Shown here piece after piece: positions 4,043 to 35,750 of a DNA stretch of 50,188 bases (its first letter is position 1; each line of letters begins with the position of its first letter). The stretch lies in the NCBI GenBank assembly GCA_964608065.1, contig CAZSMA010000001.1, positions 16,572 through 66,759 of the forward strand. Direction: 5' to 3'. The position numbers and the translations under genes are program-made. A model generated the notes under the pieces. It ran no database searches and had not been told where the DNA came from. It saw only the letters and a program-made list of their open reading frames with translations. Origin of the DNA: an uncultured Methanosarcinales archaeon (GTDB taxonomy: Archaea > Nanobdellota > Nanobdellia > Woesearchaeales > CAYXTQ01).

Positions 4043-5047
4043 TTATTTATTTTCTTCCCCCATATTCTCAAATTCTTCTTCACTAACTTCTTCATCTTCT
4101 TTATTCTTAGGAGGATGTATCAATTCATCTACTTTTTTATCAACTTTTTTCTCAAACTCTTCTTCTGCTTTCTTCTCCTCTAATTTTTCCATCATATCTT
4201 CTTCAAAATTTTCTGAAACTTCATCAACAACTCCTTCAGGAACTTCTTGAGGCACTTCTTCAAAATTTTCTTTTTTTTCTTTTTTCTCTTCCTCTGGCTC
4301 TTCAACCTTCTGCTCTGGTTCATCAAATACTTCTAGATTACCAAGTTTTTCTTTATCTTCAACAACTTCAATTTTTTTATCTTCCTCATAAACTTCTGGC
4401 TCATCAATTACTTCTAATTTTATTTTCTTGCCTTCTTCATCAACTAAATCTACTTCTTTTTCTTTAACTACTTCTGTCTTTTCTCCTTCCTTGGATTCCT
4501 CGCTCCTTTCCTTTTTCATCTTCTCGATAATCTCTTCTTTTTCTTCTATAGCATTAGCTAAACTGTCAAAGTCTTTAAACTTTTCTTTTAATTTATCTCT
4601 TGGAAGGTCAAAATAATCAAAAAATTTCTGGGCTAATTTTATCAACCTTGTTCTTCCATACTTCTGCCTTGTTATAAAACCCAGTTCTTCTAACTCTCTT
4701 AAATGATCATAAGCCTTGTTAGTCCTCATCTTGATAAGGTCTGCCTGTTTTATAGGATACTTGAATGCAATAACAGCCAGTGTTTCCATCAAAGTTTTAC
4801 TTAACTCAGTCTGTGTCACAATCGAAGAAACCAAAGACATATATCTATCTCTTACAGTCATTTTCCAATGATCGGCTTCTTGGATTAATTCAACACTTTC
4901 ATTGCCGTCATACTTTCTCTTTAATTCTTCCAATGATTTCTTAATATCCTCAACACTAACCTTAGTCAAATTGCTAATCTCATCTACATTCATACTTCTG
5001 CCTGAAGAAAACAGCAAAGCTTCAACTTTATTTATCACTTCTTGCAT
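4043..5047 (-). CDS. scpB: Segregation and condensation protein B-like (ScpB) with a ~185-aa acidic/K-rich tail
   Basis: MQEVINKVEALLFSSGRSMNVDEIS... plus a second wHTH (IKQADLIKMRTNKAYDHLRELEELGFI). The 17 codons upstream of Met18 are the translated repeat element, so the start is set at 5047. Confidence 0.75.
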   Translation of the reverse strand: MQEVINKVEALLFSSGRSMNVDEISNLTKVSVEDIKKSLEELKRKYDGNESVELIQEADHWKMTVRDRYMSLVSSIVTQTELSKTLMETLAVIAFKYPIKQADLIKMRTNKAYDHLRELEELGFITRQKYGRTRLIKLAQKFFDYFDLPRDKLKEKFKDFDSLANAIEEKEEIIEKMKKERSEESKEGEKTEVVKEKEVDLVDEEGKKIKLEVIDEPEVYEEDKKIEVVEDKEKLGNLEVFDEPEQKVEEPEEEKKEKKENFEEVPQEVPEGVVDEVSENFEEDMMEKLEEKKAEEEFEKKVDKKVDELIHPPKNKEDEEVSEEEFENMGEENK

Positions 5048-21985: not shown

Positions 21986-23061
21986 AGTTTCACCAATTCA
22001 ATAAACTCATCAAACAAAAACTCAGTATCAACAGGTCCTGGTGTTGCTTCTGGATGGAACTGCACACTTCTGAATGGTTTAATCTCATGAATTATGCCTT
22101 CATTAGTGTTATCATTTGCATTAAAAAAATAAGGTTTCCATCCGCGAGGAAGTGTTTCTGTATCAACAGCAAAGCCATGGTTCTGTGATGTAATAAACGC
22201 TCTTTTTGTTCCAACCATGACACAAGGCTGGTTCTGGCTTCTATGGCCGTATTTCAGCTTATAAGTGTCTGCTCCTGCAGCTAAAGCTAATAACTGATTA
22301 CCAAGACAAATTCCAAATATTGGCTTGCCATACTCCATAGCTCTCTTAATCTTAGCTATTGTCTCCTTGCACATCTTAGGATCTCCTGGCCCATTAGATA
22401 TAAACAACCCATCATATTCTTCTTTATTAAAATCATAATTCCATGGAACTCTTATAACAGTCACATCTCTTTTTACAAGGGATTTTATTATATTATATTT
22501 AGCTCCGCAATCAACAAGCACAATTTTATACTGGCCATTACCATATACTACCTTCTCCTTGCAGCTTACTTTCTCAACTAAATTATCCTTATCAGGATCA
22601 TAAAATCCTATATCTTCATCAAAAACAATTTTTCCAAGCATTGTTCCTTTTTCCCTTAATTTTTTAGTAAGTGCTCTTGTATCTATACCATACAAAGCAG
22701 GAATCTTATGTTCTTTTAACCAATCACTTAAGCTTTTTTTAGCATTCCAATGACTATATTCAAAAGAATAATCAGAAACTATTAAACCAGTAATCTGTAC
22801 CTTATCAGACTCAAAATTCTTCAATAATCCCTTTTCTTCCTCATTCCCAGGCACACCATAGTTTCCTATCAAAGGGTATGTTAAAGTTAAAATCTGGCCT
22901 TTATATGATGGGTCTGTCAAGGTCTCAGGATAGCCAACCATTCCTGTATTAAAAACAACTTCACCTGAAACACTTTCTTCATAACCAAAGCTATAGCCAG
23001 AGAAAATAGAACCATCTTCCAGAACTAGTTTTGTTTTTCTTTTTAGGAGTTTATTAGTCAT
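21973..23061 (-). CDS. carA: Carbamoyl-phosphate synthase small (glutaminase) subunit
   Basis: GICLGNQ nucleophile elbow and QFHPE. Overlaps carB by 13 nt. Confidence 0.95.
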   Translation of the reverse strand: MTNKLLKRKTKLVLEDGSIFSGYSFGYEESVSGEVVFNTGMVGYPETLTDPSYKGQILTLTYPLIGNYGVPGNEEEKGLLKNFESDKVQITGLIVSDYSFEYSHWNAKKSLSDWLKEHKIPALYGIDTRALTKKLREKGTMLGKIVFDEDIGFYDPDKDNLVEKVSCKEKVVYGNGQYKIVLVDCGAKYNIIKSLVKRDVTVIRVPWNYDFNKEEYDGLFISNGPGDPKMCKETIAKIKRAMEYGKPIFGICLGNQLLALAAGADTYKLKYGHRSQNQPCVMVGTKRAFITSQNHGFAVDTETLPRGWKPYFFNANDNTNEGIIHEIKPFRSVQFHPEATPGPVDTEFLFDEFIELVKLWKK

Positions 23062-26347: not shown

Positions 26348-26485
26348 TGCGGAGGTGCCGGAGCGGCCAAACGGGACAGACTCAAGGCATTTGAGTGCAG
26401 AGTGCTCATATGAGTGCGATGAAGAAATCAATGTAAGTCATCTGTTGGCTTAGTGCCTACGAGGGTTCAAACCCCTTCCTCCGCA
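26348..26485 (+). tRNA. tRNA-Leu (anticodon CAA) with a 54-nt intron at the canonical 37/38 position
   Basis: Acceptor GCGGAGG/CCTCCGC plus discriminator A. 3-bp D stem CCG/CGG with a GG-containing loop. Anticodon stem ACAGA/TCTGT, loop CUCAAG|intron|A. Long variable arm GGC-ttagt-GCC. T arm GAGGG-TTCAAAC-CCCTT. Intron is 26386-26439. No encoded CCA. Confidence 0.85.
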
Positions 26486-33934: not shown

Positions 33935-34717
33935 ATGCCTATGTACGGTTGGTCTGATTTAATAGATAAAACAAAAAGATACTTTAAGTTTACAAAGGAA
34001 GATTCTAAGGCTTTAATAATTTCTACGCTTATTCTGGCTTTTATTGTTTCTTTCAAAGAATGGGGCACAGGTTCTGAATTCAGCTTTGTAATAGGCATAA
34101 AAAATTGGATTATTGCTATATTCATGGTAGGAATAGCTTTATTTGTGCATAACGCTGGACAGAAAATAATGGGGTTGCATCTTGGTTTTAAGGTTGAATA
34201 CAGGATTTGGTGGTATGGTCTGTTAATTGGATTAATAGTTGTTTTTGTTTCTCGCGGAAGTCTATGGATTTTAGCTCCAGGAGGAATCTTTTTGCACCAC
34301 ATGGCTCAGCACAGATTAGGGTTCTTCAGGTATGGAACAAACCTAAGCAGTGTTGGAAATATTGCTTTTATGGGTGCGTTAGCGAATATTCTACTTGCTA
34401 CAATTCTGAAATTTTTACAGGTAAACTTGCATTTAATCTCATTAGATAATGTTTTTTTCAACAAATTATTCTTAATAAACTGGGCAATAGCAGCTTACAG
34501 CCTTATCCCTATTCCACCATTAGACGGTTCAAGGGTCTTCTTTGCATCTAGACTAACATTAATGTTTTTATTTGGCTGCATAGGTGGATATGTCATGTTA
34601 ATATTGTTATTCGGCATATACTCTTTTATATGGGCTTTGATTATTGGTGTATTAGTATGGTTTATTTACTTAATAACAGTTGAAAGAAAAGCATGGCCTG
34701 CTGGGCCTTCTGGATAA
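33935..34717 (+). CDS. M50 (site-2 protease)-like membrane protein lacking the HExxH motif
   Basis: Polytopic. NWAIAAYSLIPIPPLDGSRVF (NxxPxxxLDG) is retained, but the HExxH position reads HNAGQ (34148-34162). Confidence 0.65.
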   Translation: MPMYGWSDLIDKTKRYFKFTKEDSKALIISTLILAFIVSFKEWGTGSEFSFVIGIKNWIIAIFMVGIALFVHNAGQKIMGLHLGFKVEYRIWWYGLLIGLIVVFVSRGSLWILAPGGIFLHHMAQHRLGFFRYGTNLSSVGNIAFMGALANILLATILKFLQVNLHLISLDNVFFNKLFLINWAIAAYSLIPIPPLDGSRVFFASRLTLMFLFGCIGGYVMLILLFGIYSFIWALIIGVLVWFIYLITVERKAWPAGPSG

Positions 34718-34718
34718 A

Positions 34719-35042
34719 ATGGTAAGATTTTGGGAAGATTGGGCTGAAATAATTGGTTTTTTTCTATTAGTTATAGGTTTCTTTCTTGCAACACTTGCAG
34801 GAAGTGCTGTTATAAGCTATGTTGTAGTAACCTTATCTGGTATGATGGGTGGCAGGGTGTGGTACAGGATCAGGGAAAACATGAAAACACCATGGATAAT
34901 CATCTTGTTTGGATTCTTAGTCGGATTTGTCTTAGGAAGCTTTTATGGAAATAAAAAAATTATAATCTTGTTATACTTAGTTGGAATCGCAATGAGTTAT
35001 TATCTTCATTTAGAAGGTTATGTCAAGAGTTTAGAGTATTAA
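34719..35042 (+). CDS. Small membrane protein (3 TM)
   Basis: The ATG at 34719 lies 1 nt after the previous stop. Hydrophobic segments IIGFFLLVIGFFLATLAGS and IIILFGFLVGFVLGSF. Confidence 0.55.
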   Translation: MVRFWEDWAEIIGFFLLVIGFFLATLAGSAVISYVVVTLSGMMGGRVWYRIRENMKTPWIIILFGFLVGFVLGSFYGNKKIIILLYLVGIAMSYYLHLEGYVKSLEY

Positions 35043-35192
35043 TTCTGTCAAAAACCACCCATCAGAGAATAGGGCGGTATGATTTGTGACAGTACACATT
35101 CGGTGGTTTTTGATGCTCGGAATTCCACCAATGATGGATGGTTTTCGAGCACTACTCATACCACCAATCACAGATTGGTGGTATTCCGTTGT
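35043..35192 (+). promoter_or_regulatory. Structured, GC-enriched leader or small RNA upstream of the MBL hydrolase
   Basis: Three inverted repeats of 12, 5 and 11 bp. Repeated CCACC/GGTGG blocks. The last hairpin ends 8 nt before the ATG. Confidence 0.55.
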
Positions 35193-35750
35193 ATGAAATA
35201 CGTAGAAAAGATAACAAGTAATGTATGGAAAATAAAAGCAGACAGTAACATGTATGTTTTATTAGATGAAAAAACAATTATTGATACTGGAAATAGGTCT
35301 TCCAGAAACATATTGGAGACTTTCATGAGCAATGTAATTCTATTTGACAAAGTTGAAAAAGTTATATTCACACATTTGCATTATGACCATATTGGAAACT
35401 TTGACTTATTCAAAAAAGCAAAATTCTATGCTTCTGAAGAAGCAATCAATTCATTAAAAGAAAATAAATTAAACACAATATTAAACAAAGATATTGCAGA
35501 AAGATTCAATATTGAATTAAATAAACTGGAATCTTCTGAAAATTTCAAGATAATTAAAACACCTGGCCACACTAAAGGCTCTGTTTGCATTCTCTATAAA
35601 GATGTTCTTTTCAGCGGAGATACAATATTCAGCAAAGGTGCTGTTGGAAGAGTCGACCTACCTACTTCTGTTCCAGACAAATTCAAAGAAAGCCTTAACA
35701 AACTCTCAAATCTAAAATTCAAAATATTAGCTCCAGGACATGATTATTAG
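35193..35750 (+). CDS. MBL-fold metallo-hydrolase (glyoxalase II-like)
   Basis: THLHYDHIGN, TPGHTKGS and PGHD. Start set at MKYVEKITSNVW. Confidence 0.8.
   Translation: MKYVEKITSNVWKIKADSNMYVLLDEKTIIDTGNRSSRNILETFMSNVILFDKVEKVIFTHLHYDHIGNFDLFKKAKFYASEEAINSLKENKLNTILNKDIAERFNIELNKLESSENFKIIKTPGHTKGSVCILYKDVLFSGDTIFSKGAVGRVDLPTSVPDKFKESLNKLSNLKFKILAPGHDY

What the first reader, a model, noticed from the sequence alone, without database searches (positions are those of the whole stretch)
35043..35192. GC-enriched 150-nt structured leader with mutually exclusive pairings that would sequester the SD of an MBL-fold hydrolase (riboswitch-like or novel sRNA)
Seen: the ORF track starts the hydrolase at 35079. 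Those 38 extra codons (MICDSTHSVVFDARNSTNDGWFSSTTHTTNHRLVVFRC) contain no Lys and are S/T/H/D/G/W-rich, unlike every real protein in this K/E/I-rich proteome. The MBL fold starts at the ATG at 35193. The gap is visibly more GC-rich than neighbouring spacers and contains three inverted repeats:
- IR1: TCAAAAACCACC (35048-35059) / GGTGGTTTTTGA (35102-35113), 12 bp perfect, 42-nt loop
- IR2: GCTCG (35115-35119) / CGAGC (35146-35150)
- IR3: ATACCACCAAT (35158-35168) / ATTGGTGGTAT (35174-35184), 11 bp perfect, loop CACAG, ending 8 nt before the ATG
ATTCCACCAAT (35122-35132), inside the IR2 loop, is a near-copy of the 5' arm of IR3 and could pair with the same 3' arm. CTGTCA (35045-35050) can alternatively pair with TGACAG (35087-35092). 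CCACC occurs three times and GGTGG twice.
The only SD-like sequence for the hydrolase, GGTGGT (compare the AAGGGTGAT or AAGGTGAT SDs before 8121, 23815 and 33526), is the 3' arm of IR3. This is the architecture of a translational switch. Riboswitch-type leaders are rare in archaea, and I cannot match this one to a known class. An alternative reading is a MITE, given the perfect 12-bp terminal inverted repeats of IR1.
Basis: partly seen in the sequence, partly recalled or inferred. Interest (0 to 1): 0.62.

Follow-up and report, generated by a model that had tools for sequence, protein, structure and literature searches.

The report
Mobile hairpin repeat, not a riboswitch
The 150-base "structured leader" in front of the hydrolase gene is one copy of a small, hairpin-rich, selfish DNA repeat scattered through the genomes of tiny DPANN archaea, so it is an insertion rather than a riboswitch.

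Summary
The hydrolase does start at ATG 35193, because its orthologs are 183-188 aa. The segment is not a conserved leader. Five syntenic relatives (76-81% aa identity) have only 4-25 nt between the membrane-protein gene and the hydrolase ATG. The window carries a 147-bp insertion (35046-35192) at that junction.

The insertion belongs to a large repeat family. Two more copies lie in a Nanoarchaeota MAG. The left-end 19-mer matches 119 metagenome loci, giving 62 distinct full-length insertion sites. Assembly-graph branching and 2-4x depth are seen in the groundwater runs that hold the window.

Copies are 110-315 bp (mode 146), non-coding, almost always intergenic, and in all four orientations relative to their neighbours. 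There is no target duplication. 53 of 62 copies abut TTNAA on one side only; here that pentamer is ATGAA, the native start codon. Both the local hairpins and a long-range helix show compensatory changes.

Best reading: a non-autonomous PATE/SMR/REPIN-like element, probably moved as single-stranded DNA by an enzyme supplied in trans that I did not find. The SD-sequestration idea is not supported.

The parts
35046..35192 (+). Complete 147-bp copy of the repeat element (TGTCAAAAACC...GGTATTCCGTTGT). It is an insertion relative to syntenic relatives.
   Evidence: Alignment A1 with L001-L004 shows ...TAATTCT[0-5 nt]ATGAAATA... without it. Logan unitigs branch to other flanks at 35046 and 35192/35194. 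nhmmer with the family profile matches 35046-35192 at E 8e-38.
35046..35114 (+). Module 1. The long-range stem is GTCAAAAACCACC / GGTGGTTTTTGAT (35047-35059 with 35102-35114). It encloses a degenerate copy of the family's hairpin A: CCACCCATC 35055-35063 with GAATAGGGCGG 35067-35077 (canonical GATGGGTGG).
   Evidence: (I7). In 34 distinct copies the stem is 98% paired and hairpin A 95% paired.
35115..35192 (+). Module 2. It holds hairpin B (35114-35122 with 35143-35151), hairpin C (35158-35169 with 35173-35184), and the competing long-range helix S1:S3 (35118-35132 with 35174-35188).
   Evidence: I13, I8, I3. Compensatory changes occur in 3 pairs of hairpin B, 5 of hairpin C and 7 of S1:S3 across the family.
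35193..35197 (+). ATGAA, the pentamer directly 3' of the element. It corresponds to the family's one-sided TTNAA target and is also the native start codon of the hydrolase gene.
   Evidence: 53 of 62 unique copies have TTNAA at this position, against 1.2% background and 1 of 62 on the other side. ATGAAATA is conserved in relatives that lack the element.
35193..35750 (+). MBL-fold hydrolase gene, 185 aa, with its true start.
   Evidence: Orthologs are 183-188 aa at 98-100% coverage. Pfam Lactamase_B E 4.4e-19.
35079..35192 (+). Spurious 38-codon N-terminal extension: an open frame through the right part of the element.
   Evidence: The same artefact occurs at another copy (L117 ORF 4861 starts MSTTHSTNLRLVEFRC... 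inside the element), and ORFs begin inside the element in L022, L074 and L085.
34680..35042 (+). Upstream small membrane-protein gene. In relatives its stop lies 4-25 nt before the hydrolase ATG.

Best explanation
Positions 35046-35192 are one copy of a non-autonomous, hairpin-rich mobile DNA repeat that is widespread in DPANN archaea (Woesearchaeota/Nanoarchaeota-type genomes).

The element consists of two tandem inverted-repeat modules built from about six half-sites of one CCACC-containing motif in alternating orientation. Each end carries a near-terminal palindrome.

It inserted into the 4-25-nt junction of a two-gene operon, directly 5' of a TTNAA-like pentamer (here ATGAA, which contains the hydrolase start codon). 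It did not duplicate the target.

Shown:
- it is an insertion;
- it is multi-copy;
- there is no target duplication;
- the target motif is on one side only;
- the hairpins are kept by compensatory changes;
- it has no fixed relation to neighbouring genes.

Inferred, about 40% likely: it moves as single-stranded DNA through an HUH-type (IS200/IS605-like 'peel and paste' or RAYT-like) enzyme supplied in trans, which recognises the end hairpins. The rest of the probability falls on another mechanism that leaves no duplication or on an unknown one.

Inferred for the local effect: the element is a passenger. It breaks the tight coupling of the two genes, and it places a T5 tract (35106-35110) and a 12-bp hairpin ahead of the ATG, so its effect on hydrolase expression is neutral to inhibitory rather than ligand-responsive.
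For: Insertion. Five syntenic relatives (TraB-PRC-258 aa-107 aa membrane protein-MBL-Hef) have 4-25 nt at the junction. Alignment A1 places 147 extra bases between TAATTC(T) and ATGAAATA.

Multi-copy.
- Unitigs of groundwater runs X1-X3 branch at 35046 and 35192/35194 into at least 4 other flanks, and depth inside the element is 2-4x higher.
- Two copies lie on other contigs of the Nanoarchaeota MAG B4T1B8.
- The left-end 19-mer hits 119 metagenome loci, giving 62 unique full-length sites of 110-315 bp, with a mode of 146 bp.
- Several contigs carry 2 or more copies.

No target duplication, and a one-sided TTNAA target in 53 of 62 copies against 1.2% background.

The four neighbour-orientation classes number 14, 13, 8 and 7, and no neighbouring gene family recurs apart from ORFs that overlap the element and housekeeping genes.

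Compensatory changes occur in 8 pairs of the local hairpins and 7 pairs of the long-range helices. These structures are 92-97% paired, against 30-53% when the 3' partner is slid by 1-3 columns.

No ORF, no Rfam hit and no tRNA.

Y1 (IS200-type) transposases are present and abundant in the same kind of contigs. Haloarchaeal PATEs and SMRs are defined by the same features: near-terminal palindromes, no target duplication and a short targeting oligonucleotide (PMC3119063).
Against: No autonomous partner was found. None of the 122 matches to the left-end 19-mer (121 in fetched loci plus the window's own copy) is followed by a transposase gene.

The IS200 family present in these contigs has unrelated ends and hairpins (ATTGTCCTAGGCA... 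/ ...AGGAGGTCA) and different flanks. No element copy lies near it. No TnpB was detected with E. coli InsQ as seed in 0.69 Mb.

Whether the two end hairpins are direct or inverted relative to each other cannot be decided.

Only one copy lies in the 50-kb window.

The family sample is biased by the exact 19-mer used to collect it, so module 1 shows no variation.
Confidence: 0.85

Rival explanations
1. A riboswitch-like or thermosensor-like translational switch. Alternative pairings of the leader expose or sequester the GGTGGT Shine-Dalgarno sequence of the MBL hydrolase in response to a signal.
For: The fold is stable and non-random. The competing pairings are real and are conserved with covariation across the family. 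Hairpin C ends 8 nt before the ATG.
Against: The segment is absent from all five syntenic orthologous loci. The same element sits next to unrelated genes in all orientations, including convergent gene ends. There is no Rfam match. GGTG ends 12 nt from the ATG, against 5-6 nt in the window's best SD-type genes, and orthologs have no SD at all.
Confidence: 0.02
2. A dispersed family of structured non-coding RNA genes or RNA modules, for example regulatory sRNAs or transposon-derived guide-like RNAs. On this reading its conserved helices act at the RNA level, and this copy acts on or with the flanking mRNA.
For: Compensatory changes maintain several helices. Some copies carry extra hairpins nested in the loops, as in expansion segments. 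A T5 tract follows module 1 on the + strand.
Against: No conserved promoter-like box lies inside the element, and the left flanks are random. Orientation relative to neighbouring transcription is random. The one-sided TTNAA target and a clean insertion point to DNA-level mobility. No RNA run holds the window copy, and the six RNA runs listed for the canonical copy (same sample or study) hold next to none of its words. Hairpin covariation is equally expected for ends recognised as single-stranded DNA.
Confidence: 0.08
3. A classical MITE: a cut-down DDE-transposon with terminal inverted repeats, mobilised as double-stranded DNA, whose target duplication is too short or too decayed to see.
For: It is short, non-coding, multi-copy and intergenic. 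The two ends resemble each other when one is reverse-complemented (score 13, against a shuffle maximum of 9, in the window copy). A Woesearchaeal genome is reported among the most MITE-dense archaeal genomes (PMC11602168).
Against: No direct repeat of 2-5 bp flanks the 62 unique copies at any boundary offset. The only exception is an element-borne TGT that is missing from the empty sites of relatives. The target motif is on one side only. Compensatory changes within each end's own palindrome are not needed for a DDE enzyme. The direct comparison of the two ends scores almost as well as the inverted one.
Confidence: 0.1

Closest known systems
PATEs (palindrome-associated transposable elements), the transposase-free derivatives of IS200/IS605-type elements described in Haloquadratum walsbyi (PMC3119063)
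   Same: Too short to encode a transposase. Near-terminal palindromes at both ends that resemble each other. No target duplication. A 4-6-nt targeting oligonucleotide on one side only. Heterogeneous subfamilies. Other small repeats are nested in them.
   Different: No IS605-type parent with matching ends was found. The distance from the end to the palindrome is about equal at both ends (8-9 nt), not longer at the target side. The element has an additional internal inverted-repeat organisation of two modules. The host is DPANN, not a haloarchaeon.
SMR-A small mobile repeats of Haloquadratum (PMC3119063)
   Same: About 110-150 bp, inverted-repeat ends, no target duplication, a strong target preference, ends unrelated to any known transposon, and an unknown mode of mobilisation.
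   Different: SMR-A elements preferentially insert into the palindromes of PATEs and IS605 elements, whereas this family inserts next to TTNAA in intergenic DNA. No sequence comparison with SMR-A elements was made here.
REP / REPIN / BIME repeats of bacteria, mobilised by RAYT (Y1 HUH) transposases (PMC3116915, PMC3733652)
   Same: Hairpin units are arranged as inverted doublets in alternating orientation and can fold either as small hairpins or as one long hairpin. They are intergenic and have no target duplication. Structure is kept by compensatory change.
   Different: There is no unpaired GTAG/GTRG tag at the foot of the stems. No RAYT gene flanked by the repeats was found. The unit has defined ends and a TTNAA target. 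In the survey read here (PMC3733652), GTAG-tagged REPs were found only in bacterial phyla.
Classical MITEs (for example Sulfolobus SM elements, Correia elements)
   Same: Short, non-autonomous, multi-copy and intergenic, with presence/absence differences between related genomes.
   Different: No target-site duplication, and no demonstrable parent DDE insertion sequence.
Riboswitches and translational RNA switches
   Same: A stable multi-hairpin fold with mutually exclusive helices just upstream of a start codon.
   Different: Not conserved with the gene, not fixed in orientation, and present next to unrelated genes. It is a DNA insertion.

Membership tests
Riboswitch / cis-regulatory leader | Conserved upstream of orthologous genes | tested here: not met
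   Five syntenic orthologous loci have 4-25 nt in place of the 150-nt segment. nhmmer with the family profile finds nothing in L001-L005.
Riboswitch / cis-regulatory leader | Fixed position and orientation 5' of the regulated gene | tested here: not met
   Neighbour classes are (-,+) 14, (-,-) 13, (+,-) 8 and (+,+) 7 among 51 copies with flanks.
Riboswitch / cis-regulatory leader | Match to a curated RNA family | tested here: not met
   There is no hit at gathering score. The only sub-threshold hit is the animal mir-237 model (26 bits against an 80-bit gathering score). Canonical copies give no hit at E<=1.
Riboswitch / cis-regulatory leader | Ligand-dependent structural change | not testable with these tools
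   Needs in-line probing or SHAPE.
Non-autonomous mobile repeat (generic) | Many copies with unrelated flanks | tested here: met
   62 unique full-length sites from 119 metagenome loci, 2 copies in a MAG, and at least 4 other flanks in runs X1-X3.
Non-autonomous mobile repeat (generic) | Filled versus empty site in related genomes | tested here: met
   Alignment A1: window against L001-L004.
Classical MITE | Target-site duplication | tested here: not met
   No 2-5-bp direct repeat at any boundary offset other than an element-borne TGT. The empty sites lack TGT.
Classical MITE | Terminal inverted repeats shared with a parent insertion sequence | tested here: inconclusive
   The ends resemble each other, but the inverted and direct comparisons score similarly because each end is itself palindromic. 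No parent element was found.
PATE / IS200-IS605 derivative | Near-terminal palindromes at both ends and too short to encode a transposase | tested here: met
   Hairpin A lies 8-9 nt from one end and hairpin C 8 nt from the other. Length is 110-315 bp with no ORF.
PATE / IS200-IS605 derivative | No target duplication, and a short targeting sequence on one side only | tested here: met
   TTNAA abuts one end in 53 of 62 copies and the other end in 1 of 62. Background is 1.2%.
PATE / IS200-IS605 derivative | Ends and palindromes match an IS605-type transposon (tnpA and/or tnpB) of the same organisms | tested here: not met
   The IS200 (Y1_Tnp, E 2.9e-20) found in L117, L012 and L128-L137 has unrelated ends and hairpins. 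No TnpB hit. Only about 0.7 Mb was screened, so a partner elsewhere is not excluded.
REP / REPIN-RAYT | Inverted doublets of a hairpin unit that can form one long hairpin | tested here: met
   In module 2 the outer arms pair (S1:S3, 96% paired, 7 covarying pairs) and enclose two unit hairpins. Module 1 has one full unit and one truncated unit.
REP / REPIN-RAYT | GTAG/GTRG tetranucleotide tag at one end of each unit (PMC3733652) | tested here: not met
   GTGG occurs only inside the stems, paired with CCAC, not as an unpaired tag at the stem foot.
REP / REPIN-RAYT | Single-copy RAYT gene flanked by the repeats | tested here: inconclusive
   No recurrent neighbouring gene within 1.5 kb of copies.

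The most novel reading that the evidence does not exclude
The family may be an archaeal counterpart of bacterial REPIN/BIME populations. On this reading it is a vertically persisting set of double-hairpin modules in DPANN genomes, maintained by a dedicated single-copy HUH (RAYT-like) enzyme. Its conserved alternative foldings would be used by the host at the RNA level, as orientation-dependent attenuators or mRNA-stability elements, so this copy would modulate hydrolase expression.
Probability: 0.12. Interest if true: 0.6.

Novelty: new member of a known kind. Interest (0 to 1): 0.3.

Why it matters
For this locus the result removes a false lead. There is no archaeal riboswitch here, and the hydrolase annotation should start at 35193.

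More generally, it defines the boundaries, architecture, target and subfamilies of a widespread, apparently undescribed family of hairpin repeats in DPANN archaea.

- The repeats break metagenome assemblies: many copies sit at contig ends.
- They create spurious N-terminal extensions in gene calls.
- They can split operons.

DPANN genomes are small and streamlined, so abundant selfish palindromic elements without a visible transposase raise the question of what moves them.

Tried and rejected
- **Known RNA:** Rfam at gathering and at permissive thresholds on the window region and on canonical copies, plus ARAGORN, gave nothing.
- **Small guide RNAs:** I looked by eye for C/D-box, H/ACA (ACA after the stem on the - strand) and hammerhead-like CUGAUG motifs. 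None fits the spacing rules, and none is supported by Rfam.
- **Replication-origin (ORB) array:** rejected, because the element is dispersed and there is no adjacent AT-rich unwinding element or orc1/cdc6 gene.
- **Operator array for a transcription factor:** rejected, because copies lie between convergent genes and at random orientation.
- **Target duplication:** tested at all boundary offsets; none found.
- **TTNAA as part of the element:** rejected. The middle base varies among otherwise identical copies, and the window's pentamer is the native start codon.
- **Outward promoter or TATA targeting:** rejected, because distances to downstream starts range from 4 to 373 nt and half of the right-hand neighbours point the other way.
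- **Autonomous partner:**
  - none of the 122 matches to the left-end 19-mer is followed by a transposase gene;
  - no gene family recurs among the neighbours;
  - the IS200 family found has unrelated ends;
  - no TnpB was detected with InsQ as seed.
- **Viral contigs:** no match.
- **RNA-seq evidence:** no RNA run holds the element.
- **MITE census supplement (PMC11602168):** not held, so I could not check whether this family is already catalogued.

Full report
**Observation.** The region reads exactly as described. The repeat finder recovers IR1 (35048-35059/35102-35113, 12 bp perfect), IR2 (within 35114-35122/35143-35151) and IR3 (35158-35169/35173-35184, 12 bp perfect with a 3-nt loop). 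It also recovers the competing pairings 35118-35132/35174-35188 (15 nt, 93%) and 35045-35057/35080-35092. A 13-nt motif, AWWCCACCMATSA, occurs five times at 0-1 mismatch inside 35052-35184, and only one other window site (22402-22414, 1 mismatch) is that close. Read on both strands there are about six half-sites in alternating orientation. Both strands fold far better than shuffles: -53.8 kcal/mol at z -4.05, and -55.4 at z -5.02. GC is 0.43-0.44 against 0.25-0.35 nearby, although coding DNA here reaches similar values. No Rfam family and no tRNA match.

**Gene start.** The 223-aa ORF from 35079 exists. However, 120 listed homologs of the hydrolase are almost all 183-195 aa and cover 98-100% of the 185-aa protein that starts at ATG 35193. 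Named homologs come from Candidatus Woesearchaeota or Nanoarchaeota, so the window is from a DPANN archaeon. The 38 extra codons are an open frame through non-coding DNA.

**The segment is an insertion.** The closest homologs (76-81% identity) lie on contigs with the same gene order: TraB-like, PRC barrel, 258-aa protein, 107-aa membrane protein, MBL hydrolase, Hef helicase-nuclease. In those contigs the membrane-protein stop and the hydrolase ATG are only 4-25 nt apart. In the DNA alignment the relatives read ...GAGTATTAATTCT[0-5 nt]ATGAAATACGTAGAAAA. The window has 147 additional bases between TAATTC and ATGAAATA. So this is not a leader inherited with the gene.

**It is a repeat family.** Contigs of three groundwater metagenome runs that hold the window break exactly at 35046 and at 35192/35194, continue into at least four other flanks, and show 2-4x higher depth inside the element. 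A 22-base pattern from hairpin B found two further copies on other contigs of the MAG 'Nanoarchaeota archaeon B4T1B8'. The window's own copy was not returned, so its genome is not in that collection. The left-end 19-mer GTCAAAAACCACCCATCAG matched 119 metagenome loci, many at contig ends as expected of repeats. This gave 62 distinct full-length insertion sites of 110-315 bp, with a mode of 146 bp. A profile search finds one copy in the 50-kb window, none in the syntenic relatives, and additional diverged copies on several contigs. Two earlier notes of this scan describe look-alikes in other genomes.

**Anatomy.** The canonical copy reads:

- (T)GTCAAAAACCACCCATC-aga-GATGGGTGG-CATG
- about 22 variable nt
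- GTGGTTTTTGA(Y)
- GCTCGGAATTCCACC-loop-GTGGTTTTCGAGC
- ACTACTCA
- TTCCACCAAT-loop-ATTGGTGGAATTCCGTTGT
- followed by TTNAA in the flank

This makes two tandem inverted-repeat modules:

- **Module 1** (window 35046-35114) is closed by GTCAAAAACCAC/GTGGTTTTTGAC and holds hairpin A, which shares CCAC with that stem. In the window copy hairpin A has decayed (GAATAGGGCGG in place of GATGGGTGG).
- **Module 2** (35115-35192) is closed by CGGAATTCCACCAAT/ATTGGTGGAATTCCG and holds hairpins B and C. Hairpin C uses the same 3' strand as the closing helix.

The 'mutually exclusive pairings' are therefore built into the family. On 34 distinct copies the local hairpins are 92% paired with 8 pairs changed on both sides. 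The long-range helices are 97% paired with 7 such pairs. Sliding the 3' partner by 1-3 columns drops pairing to 30-53%. Stem C occurs as CCACCAAT/ATTGGTGG, CCACTTAT/ATAAGTGG, CCACTCAT/ATGAGTGG, CCATCAGT/ACTGATGG, CCGCCAGT/ACTGGCGG and others. Module 1 shows no variation because the sample was collected with its sequence. Some copies carry extra GC-rich or GAAAAT-type mini-palindromes nested in the loops.

**How it inserts.**

- The left flanks show only AT-richness.
- The right flank is TTNAA in 53 of 62 copies, against 1.2% per position in the same contigs and 1 of 62 on the left.
- The middle base varies among otherwise identical copies. In the window the pentamer is ATGAA, the native start codon region conserved in relatives without the element. 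TTNAA is therefore a target, not part of the element.
- No 2-5-bp direct repeat flanks the copies at any boundary offset. The one exception is a TGT carried at both ends of the element, which the empty sites lack.
- Copies are almost always intergenic and occur in all four arrangements relative to their neighbours: 14, 13, 8 and 7.
- Apart from ORFs that overlap the element and housekeeping genes, no gene family recurs next to the copies.

**Mechanism.** The element has a one-sided short target, no duplication, near-terminal palindromes kept by compensatory change, and no coding capacity. These are the defining traits of IS200/IS605-type elements and their transposase-free derivatives, the PATEs. 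The related but unexplained SMR repeats of Haloquadratum share them too (PMC3119063). The inverted-doublet layout also recalls bacterial REPINs and BIMEs. I therefore favour movement as single-stranded DNA by an HUH-type enzyme acting in trans, at roughly 40%.

The partner was not found:

- None of the 122 matches to the left-end 19-mer is followed by a transposase gene.
- The Y1 transposase detected in L117 and L012 (Pfam Y1_Tnp, E 2.9e-20) belongs to an abundant IS200 family in such metagenomes.
- That family's ends (ATTGTCCTAGGCA... and ...AGGAGGTCA), hairpins and flanks are unrelated, and no element copy lies near it.
- No TnpB was found with E. coli InsQ as seed in 0.69 Mb.
- The REP hallmark, a GTAG tag at the stem foot (PMC3733652), is absent.
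- Whether the two end hairpins are direct or inverted relative to each other cannot be decided.

**Consequences at this locus (inferred).** In relatives the two genes are nearly contiguous and the hydrolase has no SD, so it is probably translated by coupling. The insertion separates the genes by 150 nt. It puts a T5 tract (35106-35110) after a stable stem and a 12-bp hairpin 8 nt before the ATG. The GGTGGT in hairpin C is part of every copy of the family. Its GGTG ends 12 nt before the ATG, whereas the window's best SD-type genes (8121, 23297, 21985, 14359) have it 5-6 nt before, and most genes have none. Nothing suggests a signal-responsive switch. The element is more likely a tolerated, neutral-to-inhibitory passenger. 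No RNA run holds the window copy, and the RNA runs listed for the canonical copy hold next to none of its words.

**Novelty.** A census of prokaryotic MITEs noted a Woesearchaeal genome among the most MITE-dense archaea (PMC11602168). I could not check whether this family is in that catalogue, because its supplement is not held. Searches for DPANN or Woesearchaeota repeat elements found no description of it. An earlier follow-up in this same window described a different 39-nt two-hairpin insertion element, so small palindromic parasites seem common in this lineage. I class the finding as a new member of a known kind: it is informative for annotation and for mobile-element biology, but it is not a riboswitch.

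**Limits.** The family sample is biased by the exact 19-mer used to collect it.

Noticed in passing
L117:3186-3800; L128-L137 (for example L128:1130-1900): An abundant IS200-type insertion sequence (143-147-aa Y1_Tnp) occurs in the same kind of DPANN metagenome contigs. Its ends can be read from 11 copies: ATTGTCCTAGGCAAGGATACTACACACGTTAGTGTGTAG... on the left and ...CTTGGGACTTTAGTCCCAAGAGGAGGTCA on the right. Dozens of 70-92%-identical protein clusters sit mostly on short contigs. The ends are unrelated to the element studied here.
   Followed up: partly
L007: about 4856-4897 and 4938-4978; also L028, L033, L047, L062, L090, L094, L104, L111, L115: Some copies of the family carry extra small palindromic cassettes nested in the loops of their hairpins. 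One type is GC-rich (GAATGCGAGTGAGC...GCTCACTCGC). The other is a mini-palindrome of the form xGAAAAT-N5-7-ATTTTCx. They look like further tiny mobile repeats that target hairpin loops, as SMR-A repeats do in haloarchaeal PATEs.
   Followed up: no
window 35079-35192; L117:4861; L022, L074, L085: The right half of the element is open in one frame. ORF finders therefore extend the downstream gene into it, giving spurious N-termini such as ...STTHSTNLRLVEFRC. In L097 an ORF that starts 477 nt upstream runs on through the whole element, and shorter upstream ORFs reach 33-67 nt into the copies in L007, L048 and L054.
   Followed up: partly
L109:2382-2519 and 2676-2848: Two copies of different subfamilies lie about 150 nt apart in opposite orientation. 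One has a covarying variant of hairpin A (CCACCAGTC/GACTGGTGG), which shows that module 1 also varies outside the 19-mer-selected sample.
   Followed up: no
window 26348-26485: ARAGORN reported no tRNA in the whole window. I did not check this.
   Followed up: no
window 35122-35147 (pattern used): The genome-contig scan returned two copies in another MAG but not the window's own copy. The window's genome is therefore not in that collection, or it is masked there.
   Followed up: no
L010 / L021 / L091 (L091:418-1524): About 0.85 kb from one element copy lies a 369-aa ORF. It has an N-terminal CxxC...CxxC zinc ribbon and a C-terminal motif (GHIDIL...ILDYK) that looks like a PD-(D/E)xK nuclease. 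It was seen at one site only and was not run against Pfam.
   Followed up: no
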